Sequence record: NC_054924.1
Length of the DNA stretch: 64,000 nt
Source of the DNA: Escherichia phage vB_EcoM_Lutter
Direction: 5' to 3' (one strand)
In this document: positions 11,335-63,395 of the stretch, piece by piece
Position numbering within the stretch: the stretch's first letter is position 1
Layout: each line of letters opens with the position of its first letter
Position numbers and translations under genes: made by a program
The notes under the pieces: generated by a model
Databases searched by the model: none
What the model was told of the DNA's origin: nothing
The model's input: only the letters and a program-made list of their open reading frames with translations

Positions 11335-11937
11335 TTATAGATTAAATCCTTCAAAATCAAGAGTATAGATAGTGTATGTTGAATACTTTTTGTACTCATA
11401 TCTATCTGCAATTCTAAATACACTTCCAGCTGGTATCATTACTTCTTGTTCATCTGAAACTAATTCCATATTACGATAACGATGACTATCCGGAAACTTA
11501 AAGTTTGGATTGTATTCTTTACAGCGTAGAGCTTTTATAGCATACTCCTGGAAATTGAATACCATAGGAGCTTTGAATTCAAAAATAACTTGTGTGTTAT
11601 ACTCTAAACCGGAAGCAAAATGTAGAGCTATATTTTTATCATATGAAGCTGATACTACTTTATCAAATGTAATAATATCAATTCCTTGATTTAACACCTG
11701 CTTAGTCTCAGCTGGAACACCTCTCCAAAGAGGTTTATCGTTTGGAACCAAACGAGATTTGATTATTTCATTTAACCAAGTATGGTCATCTGGCTTATTA
11801 GTAATACAATGAATTAAAAGTTCAATTTCAGATAAATTAAACCCTTCAGAAAGTAATTCTTCACGAATAGAAGCACGCACCGATGCATCCATTGATTTTA
11901 TTTTAAAATCTTTTAGTTGCATTACTGAGTATTTCAT
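11335..11937 (-). CDS. modA: ADP-ribosyltransferase ModA
   Basis: 200-aa ORF with R / S-x-S / E-x-E ART motifs (LWRGV, SASYD, EQEVMIP). Confidence 0.8.
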   Translation of the reverse strand: MKYSVMQLKDFKIKSMDASVRASIREELLSEGFNLSEIELLIHCITNKPDDHTWLNEIIKSRLVPNDKPLWRGVPAETKQVLNQGIDIITFDKVVSASYDKNIALHFASGLEYNTQVIFEFKAPMVFNFQEYAIKALRCKEYNPNFKFPDSHRYRNMELVSDEQEVMIPAGSVFRIADRYEYKKYSTYTIYTLDFEGFNL

Positions 11938-12557
11938 TCAACTACCTCAATATCATAAACTTTAAATGTTCCAAATGAATCGTGTAATTTTTCTTTTGAA
12001 ATAGAAGTTATTCTATACTTTCCAATTGGAATCATCCATTCTTGTTCACGCACAATCATCATTAAGTTATCAGTACGCTCTGAATCTAGCCCATCAGTAT
12101 CTTCATACGTGTACTTAAACTCAGTATTAGGAGAAGAAAGTATAATATCGCTGATATGGTCAGAATAATTAAAAGCTTTATCAGTTTTTAAGCGAAATAT
12201 TATTTCAGTGAAATACTCAACATAAGAAAAACCACATGCTGTGTGCAAACTAGTAGTAAATGAATCTACCCTATTCGTTGAAAACACTTCTCCAACTTGT
12301 AAATCTTTAATGAGTTCTTTTGTCGATTTTGATATACCACGATATAACTGATAAGGTGATTTAGTTAAATGCTTTTTAACGATTTTATTCAACTGCCGAT
12401 GAAGAGCTTCATTCTTTTTAGCTTCCATACATTGCCAAAGAATTGACTGCTCAAAGTCAGTAAATTTTTCACAGACCTTTTTATACATATCATATTGAAA
12501 ATCAACGCTTTCAGCTTTTATAGATAACTGTTCAACATCTGCAAGATTAATAATCAT
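11934..12557 (-). CDS. modB: ADP-ribosyltransferase ModB
   Basis: 207-aa paralog of ModA with the same ART motifs (LYRGI, STN, EQEWMIP). Confidence 0.8.
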   Translation of the reverse strand: MIINLADVEQLSIKAESVDFQYDMYKKVCEKFTDFEQSILWQCMEAKKNEALHRQLNKIVKKHLTKSPYQLYRGISKSTKELIKDLQVGEVFSTNRVDSFTTSLHTACGFSYVEYFTEIIFRLKTDKAFNYSDHISDIILSSPNTEFKYTYEDTDGLDSERTDNLMMIVREQEWMIPIGKYRITSISKEKLHDSFGTFKVYDIEVVE

Positions 12558-18493: not shown

Positions 18494-18850
18494 TTAACCT
18501 CTATTCATAAAAGCATTAAAAATTTGGTCATCAATAGATGGTGCAGTAATATTTTCTGCATCATTTAGCAAATCATTAATTTCATCAGATAGCATAACAC
18601 ATGTACCTTTATTTCCTGTAATTGTTACTGCACAATTACGAACGTTTTCTTTATCAAATTTTAGGTTAATATTTTCGTAGTGAAAATCCTTTAATGCCGA
18701 ATATATCTTTAAAATGAAATTGTCTTTTACTACAATAAACCCAACCTCACTATTAAAACGCGGTTCATGGAAACTGTAATAAACCTTTTCATCTATAAAA
18801 TCGTATGAAATTTTTTCCATTTTTAAATATGAAAATTCAGAACTATACAT
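18494..18850 (-). CDS. single-domain paralog of the 61.2-position protein
   Basis: 118-aa ORF; last 14 codons plus the stop/start junction nearly identical at DNA level to the end of the 18852..19484 gene. Confidence 0.55.
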   Translation of the reverse strand: MYSSEFSYLKMEKISYDFIDEKVYYSFHEPRFNSEVGFIVVKDNFILKIYSALKDFHYENINLKFDKENVRNCAVTITGNKGTCVMLSDEINDLLNDAENITAPSIDDQIFNAFMNRG

Positions 18851-18851
18851 A

Positions 18852-19484
18852 TTAACCTTTATTCATAAAAGCATTAAAAATTTGATCGTCAATAGAAACT
18901 TTTACTTTAGGCTGTTCTTCAAACGGTAATTCATATCCACATATTACAATTTTGTGATCGATACCAAAATACACAGAAGCAATATTATTAATATTATTTT
19001 CAGTGAAATCTAAATCAACATCAATATCTTTTTGACTAACGCTCAAAGGATAATTAATACGAATAATTCGATTATCTTTAACAAAGATTCCACCGACATA
19101 CTCTGTGCTGCGTTTAAAGTTTACACGTTTCCTAAATGAAAAATATTCAGGTTCTTTATGGGCTCGACTCATAGGGCTTAAAGTGTATTCCGAATATGAA
19201 ATATCAAATCCTACACCTTCAATATGAGCCAAAGTATCATGATTAAACCAATTATAATCGTATGCCAAATCCATTAAATTGTAATATGTGAAAGGCACCG
19301 GATTAACATCATATGTTGTACCTTTAAAATCTGCCCAGGCAACGATTTCGTTATCTTTAACAATTACAAAAATTGTGCCAATAAGATATCTACGGTTATT
19401 TTCATCAGGTGTTATATTATAACATTGTGCATCAGGAAATTTACCGTATTTAAACGGTGGATTTTTGTGCATATAATAAATCAT
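18852..19484 (-). CDS. two-domain protein (61.2 position)
   Basis: 210-aa ORF with two internal repeats of a VKDN-containing domain. Confidence 0.55.
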   Translation of the reverse strand: MIYYMHKNPPFKYGKFPDAQCYNITPDENNRRYLIGTIFVIVKDNEIVAWADFKGTTYDVNPVPFTYYNLMDLAYDYNWFNHDTLAHIEGVGFDISYSEYTLSPMSRAHKEPEYFSFRKRVNFKRSTEYVGGIFVKDNRIIRINYPLSVSQKDIDVDLDFTENNINNIASVYFGIDHKIVICGYELPFEEQPKVKVSIDDQIFNAFMNKG

Positions 19485-58783: not shown

Positions 58784-58996
58784 TCATTTTTGTCCTGTAT
58801 TTACTTTATGCCGATGCACGGCCTTAACTTTATCAAGGTATTTTTCAAAATTTCGCAATCTAGTATAGTCTGCCGGAGATTGGTTGAGTGATACTTCTCG
58901 ACGCAAAGCTGAAATGATATTTCCAACTTCCCTACGAATTTCATCTAATTGAAGAACGGTAAGATTGCGAAGTTGCTTTTCAGTTAATTGTAGCAT
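58784..58996 (-). CDS. hypothetical protein (rI.1 position)
   Basis: 70-aa ORF. Confidence 0.45.
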
Positions 58997-59038
58997 ATAT
59001 ACCCCTTTAGTTAGATAAACCTATTTATAACTTTTGCA

Positions 59039-59620
59039 CTAACCGAGCTTTTTAGTTAATTCATTCCAATGTTTTCTACACAAAGAAACATAAATTTCAT
59101 CACCAATACAGATTTGATTACCTTCTTTAACTGGTGTTCCATCTTCCATTAATCGAGCTGTCATAATAGCTTTTTTACCACAATGACAAACTGCCTTTAG
59201 TTCAATAAGTTTATCTGCAATCGCCAAAAGTTCTTTAGAACCTTCAAATAATTTTCCAGCGAAATCAGTCCTTAGTCCATAAGCCATAACAGGAACATTA
59301 TATGTATCAACAATTCGGCTTAATTGATGCACTTGTTCAGTTTTTAAAAACTGAGCTTCATCTACAAATACACAATGAATATCTTTTTGTGCTTCAGCCC
59401 ATTTATAGAACTCAAAAATATCCATATCATCCGTAATAATATTCGCTTCCTGTTTAATTCCAATGCGAGAAACGACTTCACAGACAGAATCGCGAGTATC
59501 AATAGCAGGCTTAAGAACTAATACACTCATTCCACGTTCTTTATAATTATGCGCAGCAGTCAAAAGAGAAGCAGATTTTCCAGCATTCATTGCTGCATAA
59601 GTAAAAATTAAACTCGCCAT
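59039..59620 (-). CDS. tk: thymidine kinase
   Basis: 193-aa ORF with P-loop (AMNAGKS) and zinc ribbon CHCG...C. Confidence 0.9.
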   Translation of the reverse strand: MASLIFTYAAMNAGKSASLLTAAHNYKERGMSVLVLKPAIDTRDSVCEVVSRIGIKQEANIITDDMDIFEFYKWAEAQKDIHCVFVDEAQFLKTEQVHQLSRIVDTYNVPVMAYGLRTDFAGKLFEGSKELLAIADKLIELKAVCHCGKKAIMTARLMEDGTPVKEGNQICIGDEIYVSLCRKHWNELTKKLG

Positions 59621-59629
59621 ATCACCTTC

Positions 59630-59815
59630 TTAAAGCGTATTCACATAAGCTATTAATTCATTTTCTTTCTTATCAAACCGATCAGCAAATTCTTCCTGCT
59701 GTTCAGGAGATAGCGGGCCGTATTCATCATAAAAGGTGTTTGCTTCTGTATGCTCATCTAGAAGTTCATGGATAAGCTCAAACAATTTATCTTTTTGTTC
59801 TTTGCTTAGGCTCAC
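59630..59815 (-). CDS. hypothetical protein (tk.1 position)
   Basis: 61-aa acidic ORF. Confidence 0.4.
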   Translation of the reverse strand: MSLSKEQKDKLFELIHELLDEHTEANTFYDEYGPLSPEQQEEFADRFDKKENELIAYVNTL

Positions 59816-59984
59816 AGTATGTCAATCCCCAAAAGTTTTAAAATGACTCGTTTCTGATTCATAACTGCTACGATTGAATGACCGTTGGGGTCTTTTTGAC
59901 CTGATCCAATTATAAATCCTTTTTGCGCAGAAAGTTTAATCAAAACATCAAGTTCACGTAATAATTGATATTTTAAATCATCAT

Positions 59985-60212
59985 TCATTTTGGTTTACCT
60001 TCTTTAACGAAATCAGGATAAGGATAAAATCCTGAATAAAATCCTTCACCTTTATGATTGATGCATCCTTTATTAGAACAATAGCACCAATAATCGAAAT
60101 CACAAGTCATTTCATCGTTGCATAAAGCAAAAACAACCGGCCACTTACACTTTTCGCAGTGGGCATTTTTAAGAATACTAGTTTGGCTCATAACCATGTA
60201 ACCTTTAAGCAA
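59985..60212 (-). CDS. Cys-rich small protein
   Basis: 75-aa ORF with many Cys/His. Confidence 0.4.
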   Translation of the reverse strand: MLKGYMVMSQTSILKNAHCEKCKWPVVFALCNDEMTCDFDYWCYCSNKGCINHKGEGFYSGFYPYPDFVKEGKPK

Positions 60213-60415
60213 TATTCTTCTACATGTTGTTTACGACCTTTCTTATCAATAAAGGTATATTCAACGAATGTTCCAATGTAGTCTTTATCTACATCATGTG
60301 GACTATTAATTGGACATTTAGTACGGCAAATGCGTTCCCATTGACGAATAATTACTGCCTTATTCTTTGGGTCATACGGATGTGGATAATGTATATTCAT
60401 AATAACGGTTCCCAA
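60188..60415 (-). CDS. hypothetical protein
   Basis: 75-aa ORF. Confidence 0.4.
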   Translation of the reverse strand: MGTVIMNIHYPHPYDPKNKAVIIRQWERICRTKCPINSPHDVDKDYIGTFVEYTFIDKKGRKQHVEEYCLKVTWL

Positions 60416-60864
60416 TCAACAATCACAATTTCTAATTTAGAGGAATATGTATCTAAAATCCCCTCAATAATATCCCAGTTCCCTTTACCTATGCCTGCAC
60501 CAATCCTAGGCATATAGATTGTAGGTTTAATCAGTTTATTTTCACCAAACTCATTTAATTCTAACATACAATTCATTAAAGCGGAATACTCAAAATTTGG
60601 CCCCGGTTGAAATTGAGTATAAAGATTGAAGCAGTAAGCTTTATGAGTCCTAAAGTATTTTTCATAGACTGAGTAAGAACCGAGTTTAGTTACATCGCCC
60701 CATTCTGTCTGTAATTTATCAGCTTCCAAAATTTTAGGGAAAGCTTTAGTTAATTGACCTGCGACTCCAGCTTTCATCGTGTGAAAACAGTTACACCCAT
60801 GCGCAATAATATTACCTTCAAGAAAGAGGGCGACAATATCGCCCTTGATATATTTTACAATCAT
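60397..60864 (-). CDS. macro domain protein (ADP-ribose binding/processing)
   Basis: 155-aa ORF with macro-domain signatures (KGDIVALFLEGNIIAHGCNC...AGVAG and IYMPRIGAGIGKGNW). Confidence 0.6.
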   Translation of the reverse strand: MIVKYIKGDIVALFLEGNIIAHGCNCFHTMKAGVAGQLTKAFPKILEADKLQTEWGDVTKLGSYSVYEKYFRTHKAYCFNLYTQFQPGPNFEYSALMNCMLELNEFGENKLIKPTIYMPRIGAGIGKGNWDIIEGILDTYSSKLEIVIVDWEPLL

Positions 60865-61208
60865 CTAGTACTCAATCCTCGATTATAAGAATCTACCAAA
60901 CGGTCAACCATTGAATGACAAGCGGCTTTATCTTTCTCCTCCGCAACTGAACATTCTAAGGTATTCCACTTTTTAGCATATCGTTTTAACAATGTATCAT
61001 TTTTGTATCTGCTTGATTTATCTCTTTCTCCGTCTTTATATGCATATATTAATTTCTGCGCAAATTCAGCTTGGCATGCTTTATTTTTCCCGCAATAATC
61101 CGCTGCAGTACGGTTTACATACTCTCTAATTTCAGTATATGATGTATCTGCTAACGCAGAAGCAGAAAATGAAATTAATCCTATACATAAAACCAAAATT
61201 TTAGTCAT
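60861..61208 (-). CDS. secreted protein (vs position)
   Basis: 115-aa ORF with signal peptide; size matches T4 Vs but assignment is by synteny only. Confidence 0.4.
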   Translation of the reverse strand: MTKILVLCIGLISFSASALADTSYTEIREYVNRTAADYCGKNKACQAEFAQKLIYAYKDGERDKSSRYKNDTLLKRYAKKWNTLECSVAEEKDKAACHSMVDRLVDSYNRGLSTR

Positions 61209-61746
61209 TTACTATTTCCAAAAGTTTATTATTTTTAAGGTAATTAGCCTTTTCTAGGACTTCAGAAGCATATTTAGAACCAGCTTTAACATTCCATCCC
61301 GAATTATAAGAGGATATTGCTTTTCTTATATCGCCCTTATGTATATTTAACCAATAAGAAAGTTCAATGTACGCCCAGGAAGCTGAATTGGATCGTTTAT
61401 TCAACATTCTTTTTATTTCAGCATCGGTCATATTATAACCAAGTTCCTTAACTCTCGCTCGCATAGTAGGCAAATAATTTTGGAACATTCCGTAGGCGTG
61501 ATGCTTTGGTTTAGATTTTAAATTAACTCCGCCAGAGCTTTCTTGCCATAAAATGGCTGCCATTATATGACCTAATCCGCTCTTGTGGATATTTTTGTGT
61601 GTTTTATATTTTCCATCCTTAGAAAATTGTTCCCCGAATTGATACGCGTAACGCATGTTATCGAGTTGGACATTACTGAAAGTATGCTCGGAGCTATGCG
61701 CCATCATTGAAATGGCCAATAGACCAGCGAGTAGTGCTTTTCTCAT
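61201..61746 (-). CDS. lytic transglycosylase-like protein (SLT domain), secreted
   Basis: 181-aa ORF with signal peptide and SLT motifs (ILWQESSGG, AYGMFQ). Confidence 0.6.
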   Translation of the reverse strand: MRKALLAGLLAISMMAHSSEHTFSNVQLDNMRYAYQFGEQFSKDGKYKTHKNIHKSGLGHIMAAILWQESSGGVNLKSKPKHHAYGMFQNYLPTMRARVKELGYNMTDAEIKRMLNKRSNSASWAYIELSYWLNIHKGDIRKAISSYNSGWNVKAGSKYASEVLEKANYLKNNKLLEIVND

Positions 61747-61753
61747 GCTTACC

Positions 61754-62215
61754 TCATTGAGTTTTAATTACTGCTTTAGAAGCCTTTCCTGGTAAACGAC
61801 GACTGTTGATAATTGCCATCCTGCATTGAAGTGACGGGTTTTTGAACTTCTCATTAGGCTTACAAACTGTAAATCCAAGCCAAAGATTTCCATCTGTGAT
61901 TTCTAAACGTCCAGGACGATATTCAACCCCATCAATAAAATCCTCATCAATGTCAGGACGCGGAGGCATACTCAGGAATTCATTAACTTCTAAAACATGG
62001 TCTTTTATTTTATGGAATAATTCAAAAACATATGTCTCATCAATCTCCCGTTGAATTGCACGATCAAGAAGATGCTGAGAATATTTTAGATGAAACGATG
62101 AGACCCCTGCTGCTTTTGATGCCTCACGAATCTCATTGTTAATTTGACGAAACTCCGACTCAAAGTGACGACGAAGCTTATTTCGACGGATAAAAACTTC
62201 TGTATTGATAGTCAT
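61754..62215 (-). CDS. regB: endoribonuclease RegB
   Basis: 153-aa ORF matching T4 RegB in length and position, with an early promoter upstream. Confidence 0.8.
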   Translation of the reverse strand: MTINTEVFIRRNKLRRHFESEFRQINNEIREASKAAGVSSFHLKYSQHLLDRAIQREIDETYVFELFHKIKDHVLEVNEFLSMPPRPDIDEDFIDGVEYRPGRLEITDGNLWLGFTVCKPNEKFKNPSLQCRMAIINSRRLPGKASKAVIKTQ

Positions 62216-62242
62216 GTTATTCTCCTCTTAACTGATAGAAAA

Positions 62243-62273
62243 ATTATACCACAGTCAAGAGGAAAAGTAAACA
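62243..62273 (-). promoter_or_regulatory. T4-type early promoter
   Basis: GTTTAC, 17 nt, GTATAAT. Confidence 0.55.
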
Positions 62274-62274
62274 G

Positions 62275-62553
62275 TTATTCTTTAAATCTAATCAATTTAT
62301 TCATAGACTTTGAAACTTCTGCACGAACCTCATGTAGATTTTTGAGCTGTTCAAGACGCTGCTCATAGTAAGCAATTTCATCTTCTTCGAGACAGTCCTG
62401 TGAATCTTCTTTAAGATAACGTGCATAGTCCTGGAAAGCTTTACGGACTACTTCCTGGAAGTCATCAAGACTTTGAATTTTCTTAGGAGCAACAGATACA
62501 CGACGAGGGGCAGTATAATACTCATAACCAAACCCTGCGCTTAATTGAGCCAT
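62275..62553 (-). CDS. hypothetical protein (vs.3 position)
   Basis: 92 aa from internal ATG 62553. Confidence 0.4.
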
Positions 62554-62819
62554 TAGTATTTTTCCTCTGGTTGGAACACAGCACGGCAAGCCCACATACT
62601 GGCTTCTTTGAGTTTCGTTTTAGCAATAGTTAACTGATCGAGGCTTTCGGCGTAATTCTTCGCGAGTTCATCATCTTCACAGCTATCAAATGCTTCCCAG
62701 AATTCATCATATAAAGCATCAAAGATAAGCCCTAAACGAACTTCAGCATCTTTGATAGCATTCACTTTACTGATTTTATCGTCAGTATGTGGTTTATAAC
62801 CTTTAATGTCTTCAATCAT
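62553..62819 (-). CDS. small acidic protein (vs.4 position; possible Acb2-type cyclic-nucleotide sponge)
   Basis: 88-aa ORF at the position where T4 vs.4/Acb2 lies; assignment by size and synteny only. Confidence 0.4.
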
Positions 62820-63033
62820 ATTTTACTTCCTCACCTGTTCCCAAATCATATTCAACTAAACGAATAGGTTCATGAATGCCATATCCTTGAACAGAAATTT
62901 CTGTCGTAGGATAAATTCCATTAATATCACCCATGTTCCATACTTCGTTAAATTGCTGTTCGCCTGAATTACTAAACCACTCGGCGAAAGCATTTAGCAC
63001 ATCTTCAGAACCTTCAATAATTATCTTTGCCAT
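62812..63033 (-). CDS. hypothetical protein
   Basis: 73-aa acidic ORF. Confidence 0.4.
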   Translation of the reverse strand: MAKIIIEGSEDVLNAFAEWFSNSGEQQFNEVWNMGDINGIYPTTEISVQGYGIHEPIRLVEYDLGTGEEVKYD

Positions 63034-63395
63034 TACAAACTCTCGGTGAAGGTACGAGCGATAACGTCGCGCTGCTGTTCCGGAGTCAGAGAGTTAAAGC
63101 GAACTGCATAACCGGATACACGGATGGTCAGCTGCGGATATTTTTCCGGATGCTTAACTGCATCTTCCAGAGTTTCACGACGCAGAACGTTAACGTTCAG
63201 GTGTTGACCACCTTCAATTTTAACTGTAGGCTGTTGCTCAATTTCAATTTCACGGGCATGCAAACCATAGAAAATTTCTGGGTCTACAAAAGAGTCCTCT
63301 TTAAAGGTTTTAGAGACAATAATTCGTGCTTGAATACCATCTTCAAAATAAATAGTACCTTTATGTGTGCCTTCAAGAATTTGATATGCTTTCAT
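63033..63395 (-). CDS. autonomous glycyl radical cofactor (GrcA/YfiD-like, T4 Y06I-type)
   Basis: 120-aa ORF; C-terminal ~60 aa essentially identical to E. coli GrcA including RVSGYAVRF; that half is markedly GC-rich. Confidence 0.85.

What the first reader, a model, noticed from the sequence alone, without database searches (positions are those of the whole stretch)
60397..60864. Macro-domain protein in a genome that also encodes ADP-ribosyltransferases
The 155-aa ORF has both macro-domain signatures (GDI...N-terminal glycine-rich segment and PRIGAGIGKG). ModA and ModB at 11335..12557 are ADP-ribosyltransferases in the same genome. A macro domain could reverse or read ADP-ribosylation, either tuning the phage's own modifications or removing ADP-ribose placed on phage DNA or protein by host defences such as DarT.
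Basis: partly seen in the sequence, partly recalled or inferred. Interest (0 to 1): 0.5.

Follow-up and report, generated by a model that had tools for sequence, protein, structure and literature searches.

The report
Phage macrodomain that counters DarT2
This is the T4-type phage gene tk.4 (recently renamed adfM), a small macrodomain enzyme already shown by knockout to protect phage T4 from the bacterial DarTG2 defence that ADP-ribosylates phage DNA, so the finding is correct but already known.

Summary

The window is a Tequatrovirus. The ORF is gene tk.4, 97% identical to T4 Tk.4, which has long been annotated as an 'A1pp phosphatase / macro domain'. A 2025 preprint (HIDEN-SEQ, 10.1101/2025.11.20.689424) found tk.4 to be the only T4 gene that becomes essential on a DarTG2 host. 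A clean knockout confirmed this, and the authors renamed the gene adfM.

The suggested link to ModA/ModB is not supported.

What I add:
- Tk.4 is not DarG-type. The catalytic Lys of DarG and TARG1 is replaced by an invariant Gln (Q84, 120/120 homologues).
- The active site matches Streptomyces SCO6735, a proven Lys-independent thymidine-ADP-ribose DNA hydrolase: Q85↔Q84, N27↔N25, G128↔G124.
- It is unrelated at pairwise-sequence level to PhiKZ gp104, which carries the same name AdfM but is truly DarG-like.

Removal of ADP-ribose from DNA by Tk.4 has not been shown biochemically.

Verdict: already known, low interest.

The parts
60397..60864 (-). tk.4 / adfM coding sequence, 155 aa, single macrodomain
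60757..60801 (-). Codons 22-36, HGCNCFHTMKAGVAG: ADP-ribose-binding loop 1 with H22 and the conserved Asn N25
   Evidence: N25 is conserved in 120/121 homologues, H22 in 116/121 and G33 in 121/121. hhalign places H22 and N25 on SCO6735 H24 and N27. N27S nearly abolishes SCO6735 activity.
60613..60627 (-). Codons 80-84, NLYTQ: Q84 occupies the position of the catalytic Lys of DarG (K80) and TARG1 (K84)
   Evidence: HMMER profile alignment to TARG1, MAFFT with DarG, TARG1 and PhiKZ gp104, and hhalign to SCO6735 Q85. Q is present in 120/120 homologues. SCO6735 Q85A and Q85E are inactive.
60481..60510 (-). Codons 119-128, PRIGAGIGKG: phosphate-binding loop 2
   Evidence: P119, I121 and G124 are invariant in A1; G122 and G128 are nearly invariant. 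The segment aligns to PRIGCGLAGG of SCO6735 and BT1257 and to PRIGCGLDRL of TARG1. TARG1 D125 corresponds to G126 here.
60876..60880 (-). GAGGA Shine-Dalgarno-like sequence, 11 nt upstream of the tk.4 ATG and inside the 3' end of vs
   Evidence: Upstream sequence printed. The tk.4 ATG overlaps the vs stop codon (ATGA), and T4 annotates the tk.3 start 4 nt before the tk.4 stop. The genes are therefore tightly packed and co-directional.

Best explanation
The ORF is the orthologue of T4 tk.4/adfM, a stand-alone TARG1/ALC1-class macrodomain that the phage makes to neutralise the host DarTG2 toxin-antitoxin defence.

Proposed mechanism: DarT2 attaches ADP-ribose to thymidine N3 in single-stranded phage DNA and blocks replication. 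Tk.4 most likely binds the ADP-ribose through its two glycine-rich loops and hydrolyses the thymine-ribose bond, restoring normal DNA.

The chemistry is predicted to be the lysine-independent type described for Streptomyces SCO6735. There, a glutamine (Q84 here), held in place by the conserved asparagine (N25), positions the distal ribose for water-mediated cleavage. It is not predicted to be the catalytic-lysine chemistry of DarG.

Shown: macrodomain fold and class, orthology to T4 Tk.4, conservation of the SCO6735 catalytic residues, and (in the literature, for T4) the genetic requirement on DarTG2 hosts.

Inferred: that the protection is enzymatic, that the substrate is thymidine-linked ADP-ribose on DNA, and the role of Q84.
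For: Orthology: 97% identity to T4 Tk.4 in the same vs-tk.4-tk.3 context.

Genetics, from the literature: tk.4 is the single hit on a DarTG2 host and Δtk.4 is sensitised. T4 lacking adfA and adfN stays DarTG2-resistant, so another factor was expected.

Fold and class:
- pLDDT 95.6.
- Foldseek to TARG1 6e-10, Poa1p 4e-9, BT1257 8e-9, Taq DarG 6e-7.

Active site:
- Q84 aligns to TARG1 K84, DarG K80 and SCO6735 Q85; N25 to N27; G124 to G128; H22 to H24. hhalign to SCO6735 gives probability 98.6%, E 7e-16.
- Q84 is present in 120/120 homologues and N25 in 120/121.
- SCO6735 cleaves dT-ADPr DNA and protects against DarT; Q85A/E and N27S kill or nearly kill it.
- BT1257, the best PDB match of Tk.4, is a close relative of SCO6735 (E 1e-53).

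Correlation: DarTG2-sensitive T5 has no such macrodomain. The best profile score is 10 bits, against 210 bits in the window.
Against: - No biochemical assay of T4 Tk.4 was found in the searched literature. The preprint only says enzymatic removal 'seems likely'.
- The DNA-contacting lysines of SCO6735 (K34, K89) are not conserved; they correspond to A32 and G88 by the alignment.
- Identity to SCO6735 is only about 20%.
- The genetic evidence is from a preprint and from T4 itself, not from this phage.
- SCO6735, DarG and TARG1 also inhibit DarT by direct interaction, so protection need not be purely catalytic.
Confidence: 0.8

Rival explanations
1. Tk.4 protects mainly without catalysis, by binding and inhibiting DarT2 or by shielding or sequestering ADP-ribosylated DNA.
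For: Catalytically dead SCO6735 (Q85A), DarG (K80A) and TARG1 (K84A) all inhibit DarT in vitro, SCO6735 most strongly. Tk.4 lacks the catalytic Lys of DarG.
Against: Tk.4 has no counterpart of the DarG C-terminal DarT-binding domain: it is 155 aa and matches only positions 2-146 of the 338-position DarG model. The strict invariance of Q84, N25 and the ADP-ribose loops across distant phages is what an enzyme active site looks like. Those phages must meet divergent DarT2 proteins, which argues against a toxin-specific binding surface.
Confidence: 0.1
2. Tk.4 reverses or tunes the phage's own ADP-ribosylation by Alt, ModA or ModB.
For: ModA and ModB are encoded in the same window. Macrodomains in general remove protein ADP-ribose, and SCO6735 and TARG1 also act on Glu/Asp-linked protein ADP-ribose.
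Against: Tk.4-like genes are found in 2734 phage records across many host genera, ModB-like genes in 1009 records that are nearly all enterobacterial T4-likes. Most carriers therefore have no detectable Mod enzyme; Alt was not searched. tk.4 is about 48 kb from modA/modB. In T4 it is dispensable on a host without DarTG2 and becomes important only with it. From general knowledge, Alt, ModA and ModB modify arginine, which ARH/DraG-type enzymes reverse, not TARG1-like macrodomains.
Confidence: 0.04
3. Tk.4 is chiefly a small-molecule enzyme, as RefSeq annotates it ('phosphatase', 'A1pp motif', 'Poa1p-like'). It would dephosphorylate ADP-ribose-1''-phosphate or process O-acetyl-ADP-ribose or other soluble ADP-ribose derivatives.
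For: Annotations. Poa1p is among the best sequence and structure matches. The H-x-C-N-C motif is shared with Poa1p, and Poa1p H23 and S30 (mutated in PDB 6lfs and 6lft) align to Tk.4 H22 and T29. In two metagenomic T4-like contigs the gene lies near RNA ligase 1 and PNKP.
Against: The only phenotype known is DarTG2 sensitivity. Neither T4 nor this window is known to make ADP-ribose-1''-phosphate. The Poa1p-like label is a domain-family name, not a tested function. Poa1p has Ser, not Gln, at the key position (alignment).
Confidence: 0.05

Closest known systems
T4 Tk.4 = AdfM (anti-DarT factor Macrodomain), HIDEN-SEQ preprint 10.1101/2025.11.20.689424
   Same: Orthologue: 150/155 identical, same length, same neighbours vs and tk.3.
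   Different: Five substitutions, at positions 15, 18-19 and 31-32. KA replaces GS at 31-32 in loop 1, so the window protein gains a Lys next to the ADP-ribose loop. This phage itself has not been tested.
Streptomyces coelicolor SCO6735 (PDB 5e3b) and its Bacteroides relative BT1257 (2fg1/2afc)
   Different: Only about 20% identical. SCO6735 K34 and K89 are not conserved. Tk.4 has its own invariant residues (C26, D49, Y82, T83). SCO6735 is a cellular, DNA-damage-regulated gene, whereas Tk.4 belongs to a clade seen here only in phage genomes or phage-like contigs.
DarG antitoxin of DarTG2 (Thermus aquaticus 5m31, M. tuberculosis 5m3i)
   Different: - The catalytic Lys (FPTKKHWR) is replaced by Gln (NLYTQFQPG).
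- There is no C-terminal DarT-binding domain.
- The NCBIfam DarG equivalog scores 25 bits against a cut-off of 250.
- The gene is not next to a darT gene.
PhiKZ gp104, also named AdfM (Cell Rep 2026, PMC13309987)
   Same: Phage-encoded stand-alone macrodomain that counters DarTG2. It is shown in vitro to remove ADP-ribose from DarT2-modified DNA, and its conserved Asn is important.
   Different: It is truly DarG-like: it has the FPTKDNWR lysine motif and hits Mtb DarG at E 9e-25. Pairwise BLASTP to Tk.4 finds only 8/33 identities, E 0.012. One name therefore covers two different macrodomain subfamilies.
Human TARG1/OARD1
   Same: Best Foldseek match (E 6e-10). Cleaves thymine-ADP-ribose on DNA and uracil-ADP-ribose on RNA.
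   Different: The K84/D125 catalytic dyad is absent; the corresponding residues here are Q84 and G126.
Yeast Poa1p, ADP-ribose-1''-phosphate phosphatase
   Different: Poa1p has Ser at the Q84 position and an extra insertion. It is a small-molecule enzyme of tRNA-splicing by-product metabolism.

Membership tests
Macro domain (Pfam PF01661) | Sequence score above the curated Pfam gathering threshold | tested here: met
   25 bits against cut-off 22, E 2e-5, profile positions 2-113 of 118.
Macro domain (Pfam PF01661) | Three-layer alpha/beta/alpha macro fold | tested here: met
Macro domain (Pfam PF01661) | ADP-ribose binding | not testable with these tools
   Both binding loops are conserved, but binding itself needs ITC, a thermal-shift assay or a co-crystal.
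ALC1/TARG1-like macrodomain class | Closest relatives are TARG1, DarG, Poa1p and SCO6735/BT1257 rather than MacroD, PARG or macroH2A types | tested here: met
T4 Tk.4/AdfM orthologous group | High identity over full length and conserved position between vs and tk.3 | tested here: met
   150/155 identical with no gaps. T4 gene order is regB, vs.1, vs, tk.4, tk.3, tk.2, tk.1, tk, matching the window ORFs.
T4 Tk.4/AdfM orthologous group | Required for growth on DarTG2-expressing hosts | not testable with these tools
   Shown for T4 only, in preprint 10.1101/2025.11.20.689424.
SCO6735-type (Gln) thymidine-ADP-ribose hydrolases | Gln at the position of DarG K80 / TARG1 K84, essential in SCO6735 (Q85) | tested here: met
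   Q84 aligns to SCO6735 Q85 by hhalign (probability 98.6%) and to TARG1 K84 and DarG K80. Present in 120/120 homologues.
SCO6735-type (Gln) thymidine-ADP-ribose hydrolases | Asn that locks the Gln rotamer (N27), and Gly of the phosphate loop (G128) | tested here: met
   N25 aligns to N27 and G124 to G128. N25 is present in 120/121 homologues and G124 in 118/118.
SCO6735-type (Gln) thymidine-ADP-ribose hydrolases | DNA-positioning lysines K34 and K89 | tested here: not met
   These align to A32 (S32 in T4) and G88. Nearby K31 (this window only) and K127 might substitute, which is untested.
SCO6735-type (Gln) thymidine-ADP-ribose hydrolases | Hydrolysis of dT-ADP-ribose on ssDNA | not testable with these tools
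   Needs a gel-shift or AMP-Glo assay on DarT2-modified oligonucleotide.
DarG antitoxin (NCBIfam NF048014 equivalog) | Score above the equivalog cut-off | tested here: not met
   25.2 bits against a cut-off of 250.
DarG antitoxin (NCBIfam NF048014 equivalog) | Catalytic lysine in the FPTK(K/R)HWR motif | tested here: not met
   NLYTQFQPG is in its place.
DarG antitoxin (NCBIfam NF048014 equivalog) | C-terminal DarT-binding domain and an adjacent darT gene | tested here: not met
   The protein has 155 aa and covers model positions 2-146 of 338. Its neighbours are vs and tk.3.
PhiKZ gp104-type AdfM | Detectable pairwise similarity and the DarG-like lysine motif | tested here: not met
   BLASTP gives 8/33 identities, E 0.012. 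gp104 hits Mtb DarG at 9e-25, whereas Tk.4 alone hits it at 0.2.
Poa1p-type ADP-ribose-1''-phosphate phosphatase | Residues equivalent to Poa1p H23 and S30 (mutated in PDB 6lfs, 6lft) | tested here: inconclusive
   H22 and T29 align to them, but the paper describing their role was not in the library, and phosphatase activity is untested.

The most novel reading that the evidence does not exclude
T4-type AdfM is not a captured DarG antitoxin. It would be a separate, phage-wide clade of Gln-type (lysine-independent) TARG1-class hydrolases, with family-specific invariant residues of unknown role (C26, D49, Y82).

It may have a wider substrate range than DNA thymine. One candidate is uracil-ADP-ribose on RNA, which TARG1 and SCO6735 cleave. 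If so, it would be a general eraser of N3-pyrimidine ADP-ribosylation rather than a DarT2-specific antidote. Two non-orthologous phage macrodomains currently share the name AdfM.
Probability: 0.45. Interest if true: 0.35.

Novelty: already known. Interest (0 to 1): 0.2.

Why it matters
DarTG systems stop phages by ADP-ribosylating their DNA, and T-even phages carry a layered set of antidotes: AdfA (61.2), AdfN (30.3) against DarTG1, and Tk.4/AdfM against DarTG2. Recognising the gene here helps predict host range on DarTG2-carrying strains, which is relevant for choosing therapeutic phages.

The only point beyond the literature is mechanistic. The T4-type protein has the Gln-type active site of SCO6735, not the Lys-type site of DarG or PhiKZ gp104. 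Inhibitors or mechanistic conclusions drawn from DarG may therefore not transfer, and the shared name AdfM hides two independent solutions.

Tried and rejected
- Promoter and terminator scan of 58900..63200: counts were no higher than in shuffled sequence (14 against 15.9 promoters). A regex for MotA-box middle promoters found none correctly spaced upstream of tk.4. I make no claim about the transcription unit beyond tight co-directional packing.
- The terminator-like hairpin inside tk.4 (60827..60845) folds no better than shuffles (z -1.2) and was rejected as a feature.
- Homologues labelled as bacterial MAG proteins (P0069, P0102) might have shown a cellular origin or darT linkage. Both lie in T4-like phage contigs.
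- T5 ORF T5.105, annotated 'Sir2', was suspected to be a macrodomain. Its sequence looks like a HAD phosphatase (DIDGVLN motif, by eye) and it did not match the macrodomain profiles.
- The paper on the Poa1p structures was not in the library, so the roles of H23 and S30 could not be checked.
- A first attempt to obtain the SCO6735 sequence through a DarG query failed. A BT1257 query succeeded.

Full report
**Observation.** The window has an ATG-initiated ORF of 155 codons at 60397..60864 on the minus strand (sequence).
- Pfam's Macro model matches above its curated threshold (25 against 22 bits).
- PHROG 335 matches at 2.5e-65.
- An AlphaFold2 model built on 63 homologues is very confident (pLDDT 95.6, pTM 0.91).

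**ModA and ModB.** The ORFs at 11335..11937 and 11934..12557 are ModA (99% identical to T4) and ModB (95%). Both hit PHROG 832 'RNA polymerase ADP-ribosylase'.

**Identity.** A 3.3-kb stretch around the ORF is 99.6% identical to Escherichia phage vB_Eco_BGP and 95-99% identical to hundreds of Tequatrovirus genomes.
- In T4 the corresponding gene is tk.4 (NP_049723), annotated 'phosphatase; contains A1pp phosphatase motif'. It lies between vs and tk.3.
- The window protein is 150/155 identical to T4 Tk.4. It differs at residues 15, 18-19 and 31-32.
- Other records call it 'macro domain protein' or 'Poa1p-like family protein'.
- The tk.4 ATG overlaps the vs stop codon (ATGA) and a GAGGA lies 11 nt upstream. 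By the T4 annotation, the tk.3 start overlaps the tk.4 stop.
- Promoter-like and terminator-like matches in the region are no more frequent than in shuffled sequence, so I make no claim about its own promoter.

**What is already published.**
- The HIDEN-SEQ preprint (bioRxiv 10.1101/2025.11.20.689424, Nov 2025) screened a T4 transposon library on E. coli expressing DarTG2. tk.4 was the single significant hit, and a clean knockout was sensitised to DarTG2. The authors noted similarity to the M. tuberculosis DarG macrodomain and renamed the gene adfM. They state that enzymatic removal of ADP-ribose from DNA 'seems likely', but they did not assay it.
- Earlier work had shown that T4 lacking adfA (61.2) and adfN (30.3) remains DarTG2-resistant, and had predicted a further factor.
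- Independently, a Cell Reports 2026 paper named PhiKZ gp104 'AdfM'. It showed in vitro that gp104 removes ADP-ribose from DarT2-modified DNA, and that mutating its conserved Asn reduces activity.
- A survey of viral NAD/ADP-ribose systems found macrodomains in about 41% of myoviruses.

A macrodomain in a T4-like phage is therefore ordinary, and its anti-DarT2 role is known.

**What kind of macrodomain it is.** In 120 database homologues aligned to the family profile, these residues are essentially invariant: G23, N25, C26, G33, A35, D49, N80, Y82, T83, Q84, P119, I121 and G124.
- *Lysine replaced by glutamine.* HMMER's profile alignment to TARG1 and a MAFFT alignment with TARG1, Taq and Mtb DarG and PhiKZ gp104 both place Q84 at the position of the catalytic lysine: NLYTQ against LITKK (TARG1 K84) and FPTKKHWR (DarG K80). 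TARG1 D125 corresponds to G126. Tk.4 therefore has neither catalytic residue of TARG1 and lacks the one catalytic residue known for DarG.
- *Not a DarG equivalog.* The NCBIfam DarG model scores 25 bits against a cut-off of 250 and covers only its macrodomain part.
- *The SCO6735 precedent.* PMC9411070 shows that S. coelicolor SCO6735 has Gln85 at exactly this position. SCO6735 hydrolyses thymidine-linked ADP-ribose on DNA and protects against DarT. Q85A and Q85E are dead and N27S is nearly dead. The authors propose a water-mediated mechanism in which Gln85, locked by Asn27, positions the distal ribose.
- *Direct alignment to SCO6735.* I recovered the SCO6735 sequence through its close relative BT1257 (E 1e-53), which is also Tk.4's best PDB match. 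hhalign of the Tk.4 family profile against SCO6735 gives probability 98.6% and E 7e-16. It pairs H22/H24, N25/N27, N80/N81, Q84/Q85, and G122 and G124 with G126 and G128. The two DNA-positioning lysines of SCO6735 (K34, K89) are not conserved.
- *Contrast with PhiKZ gp104.* gp104 has the DarG lysine motif, hits Mtb DarG at 9e-25, and shows no meaningful pairwise similarity to Tk.4 (8/33 identities, E 0.012).

The two phage proteins called AdfM thus belong to different subfamilies of the TARG1/ALC1-like class.

**Mechanism.** The best-supported account has three steps.
1. DarT2 ADP-ribosylates thymidine in phage ssDNA. This comes from the literature.
2. Tk.4 binds the ADP-ribose through loop 1 (N25...G33-V-A) and loop 2 (P119-R-I-G-A-G). 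The loops are shown by sequence and fold; binding itself is untested.
3. Tk.4 cleaves the thymine-ribose bond by SCO6735-like, lysine-independent chemistry that depends on Q84 and N25. This is inferred from residue conservation.

Two further observations fit this account.
- DarTG2-sensitive phage T5 has no detectable TARG1-like macrodomain. tblastn with Tk.4 finds nothing at E up to 10, and the best profile score is 10 bits against 210 bits in the window.
- Homologues labelled as bacterial MAG proteins lie in T4-like phage contigs. The close family therefore looks phage-borne, and no darT gene was evident next to them.

**Rivals.**
- *Non-catalytic inhibition of DarT2.* This is possible, because dead mutants of SCO6735, DarG and TARG1 inhibit DarT in vitro. 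However, Tk.4 lacks a DarT-binding domain, and its strict active-site conservation across very different phages argues for catalysis.
- *Tuning of the phage's own ModA/ModB/Alt modifications.* This is poorly supported. Tk.4-like genes are in 2734 phage records, including 184 Pseudomonas, 128 Vibrio, 92 Acinetobacter and 86 Aeromonas phages and non-T4-like myoviruses of 80-150 kb. ModB-like genes are in 1009 records, nearly all from enterobacterial T4-likes. In T4 the gene matters only when DarTG2 is present. From general knowledge, the T4 transferases make arginine-linked ADP-ribose, which this macrodomain class is not known to cleave.
- *The RefSeq 'phosphatase' reading (Poa1p-like Appr-1''-p phosphatase).* This rests on family naming. 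H22 and T29 do align with Poa1p H23 and S30, so a side activity is not excluded, but nothing supports it as the main role.

**Novelty and score.** The macrodomain annotation is old, and the anti-DarTG2 function was published in 2025 for a 97%-identical orthologue.

What remains open is biochemical: no assay of T4 Tk.4 was found. This analysis adds the modest point that the protein is SCO6735-type rather than DarG-type. TARG1, DarG and SCO6735 also remove uracil-linked ADP-ribose from RNA, so a wider substrate range is conceivable.

Verdict: already known, interest about 0.2.

Noticed in passing
window 18855..19484 (-) and 18497..18790 (-): The orthologue of T4 gp61.2/AdfA (anti-DarT factor A) is only 72% identical to T4, while ModA, ModB and Tk.4 are 95-99% identical. 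A second, weaker match (35% over 103 aa) lies immediately downstream and may be a diverged partial duplicate. This looks like a fast-evolving counter-defence gene.
   Followed up: partly
window 60397..60864, residues 31-32 and 127: The window allele has K31-A32 where T4 has G31-S32; the family consensus is G-A. It shares with T4 a K127 where most homologues have Gly. Both positions flank the ADP-ribose loops. They might stand in for the missing SCO6735 DNA-contact lysines, which is speculative.
   Followed up: no
Tk.4 residue D49 (window 60718..60720): Asp49 is conserved in 119/121 family members (the other two have Glu), but DarG, BT1257 and PhiKZ gp104 have Tyr and TARG1 has Leu at the aligned column. 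It is a family-specific residue of unknown role.
   Followed up: no
window 60827..60845: An 8-bp inverted repeat (AGGGCGATATTGTCGCCCT) lies in codons 7-13 of tk.4. The terminator scan flags it on both strands, and one related record annotates a 'terminator' under the tk.4 match. The RNA fold is not better than shuffles (z -1.2), so it is probably fortuitous.
   Followed up: yes
L004-L006 (phage T5, NC_005859): T5, the DarTG2-sensitive control phage, has no detectable Tk.4-like or gp104-like macrodomain. T5.105, annotated 'Sir2', looks by eye like a HAD-type phosphatase (DIDGVLN motif) and seems mis-annotated.
   Followed up: partly
L002 41..2397 and L003 6001..8941: In two metagenomic T4-like contigs binned as bacterial MAGs, the Tk.4 homologue sits near RNA-repair genes (Rnl1, PNKP). 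In L002 it is also close to a DUF4326 gene. Any functional link is untested.
   Followed up: no
window 60188..60415 and 59985..60212 (-): The downstream neighbours tk.3 (DUF7202, E 2e-38) and tk.2 (Phage_zn_bind, E 3e-29) are conserved small proteins of unknown function. Upstream, vs.1 carries an SLT lytic transglycosylase domain.
   Followed up: no
PDB 7enn/7otq (ALC1/CHD1L), seen: The non-catalytic ALC1 macrodomain also has Gln (VAQH) at the position of TARG1 K84. Gln may therefore be the older state in this class and Lys a derived one.
   Followed up: no
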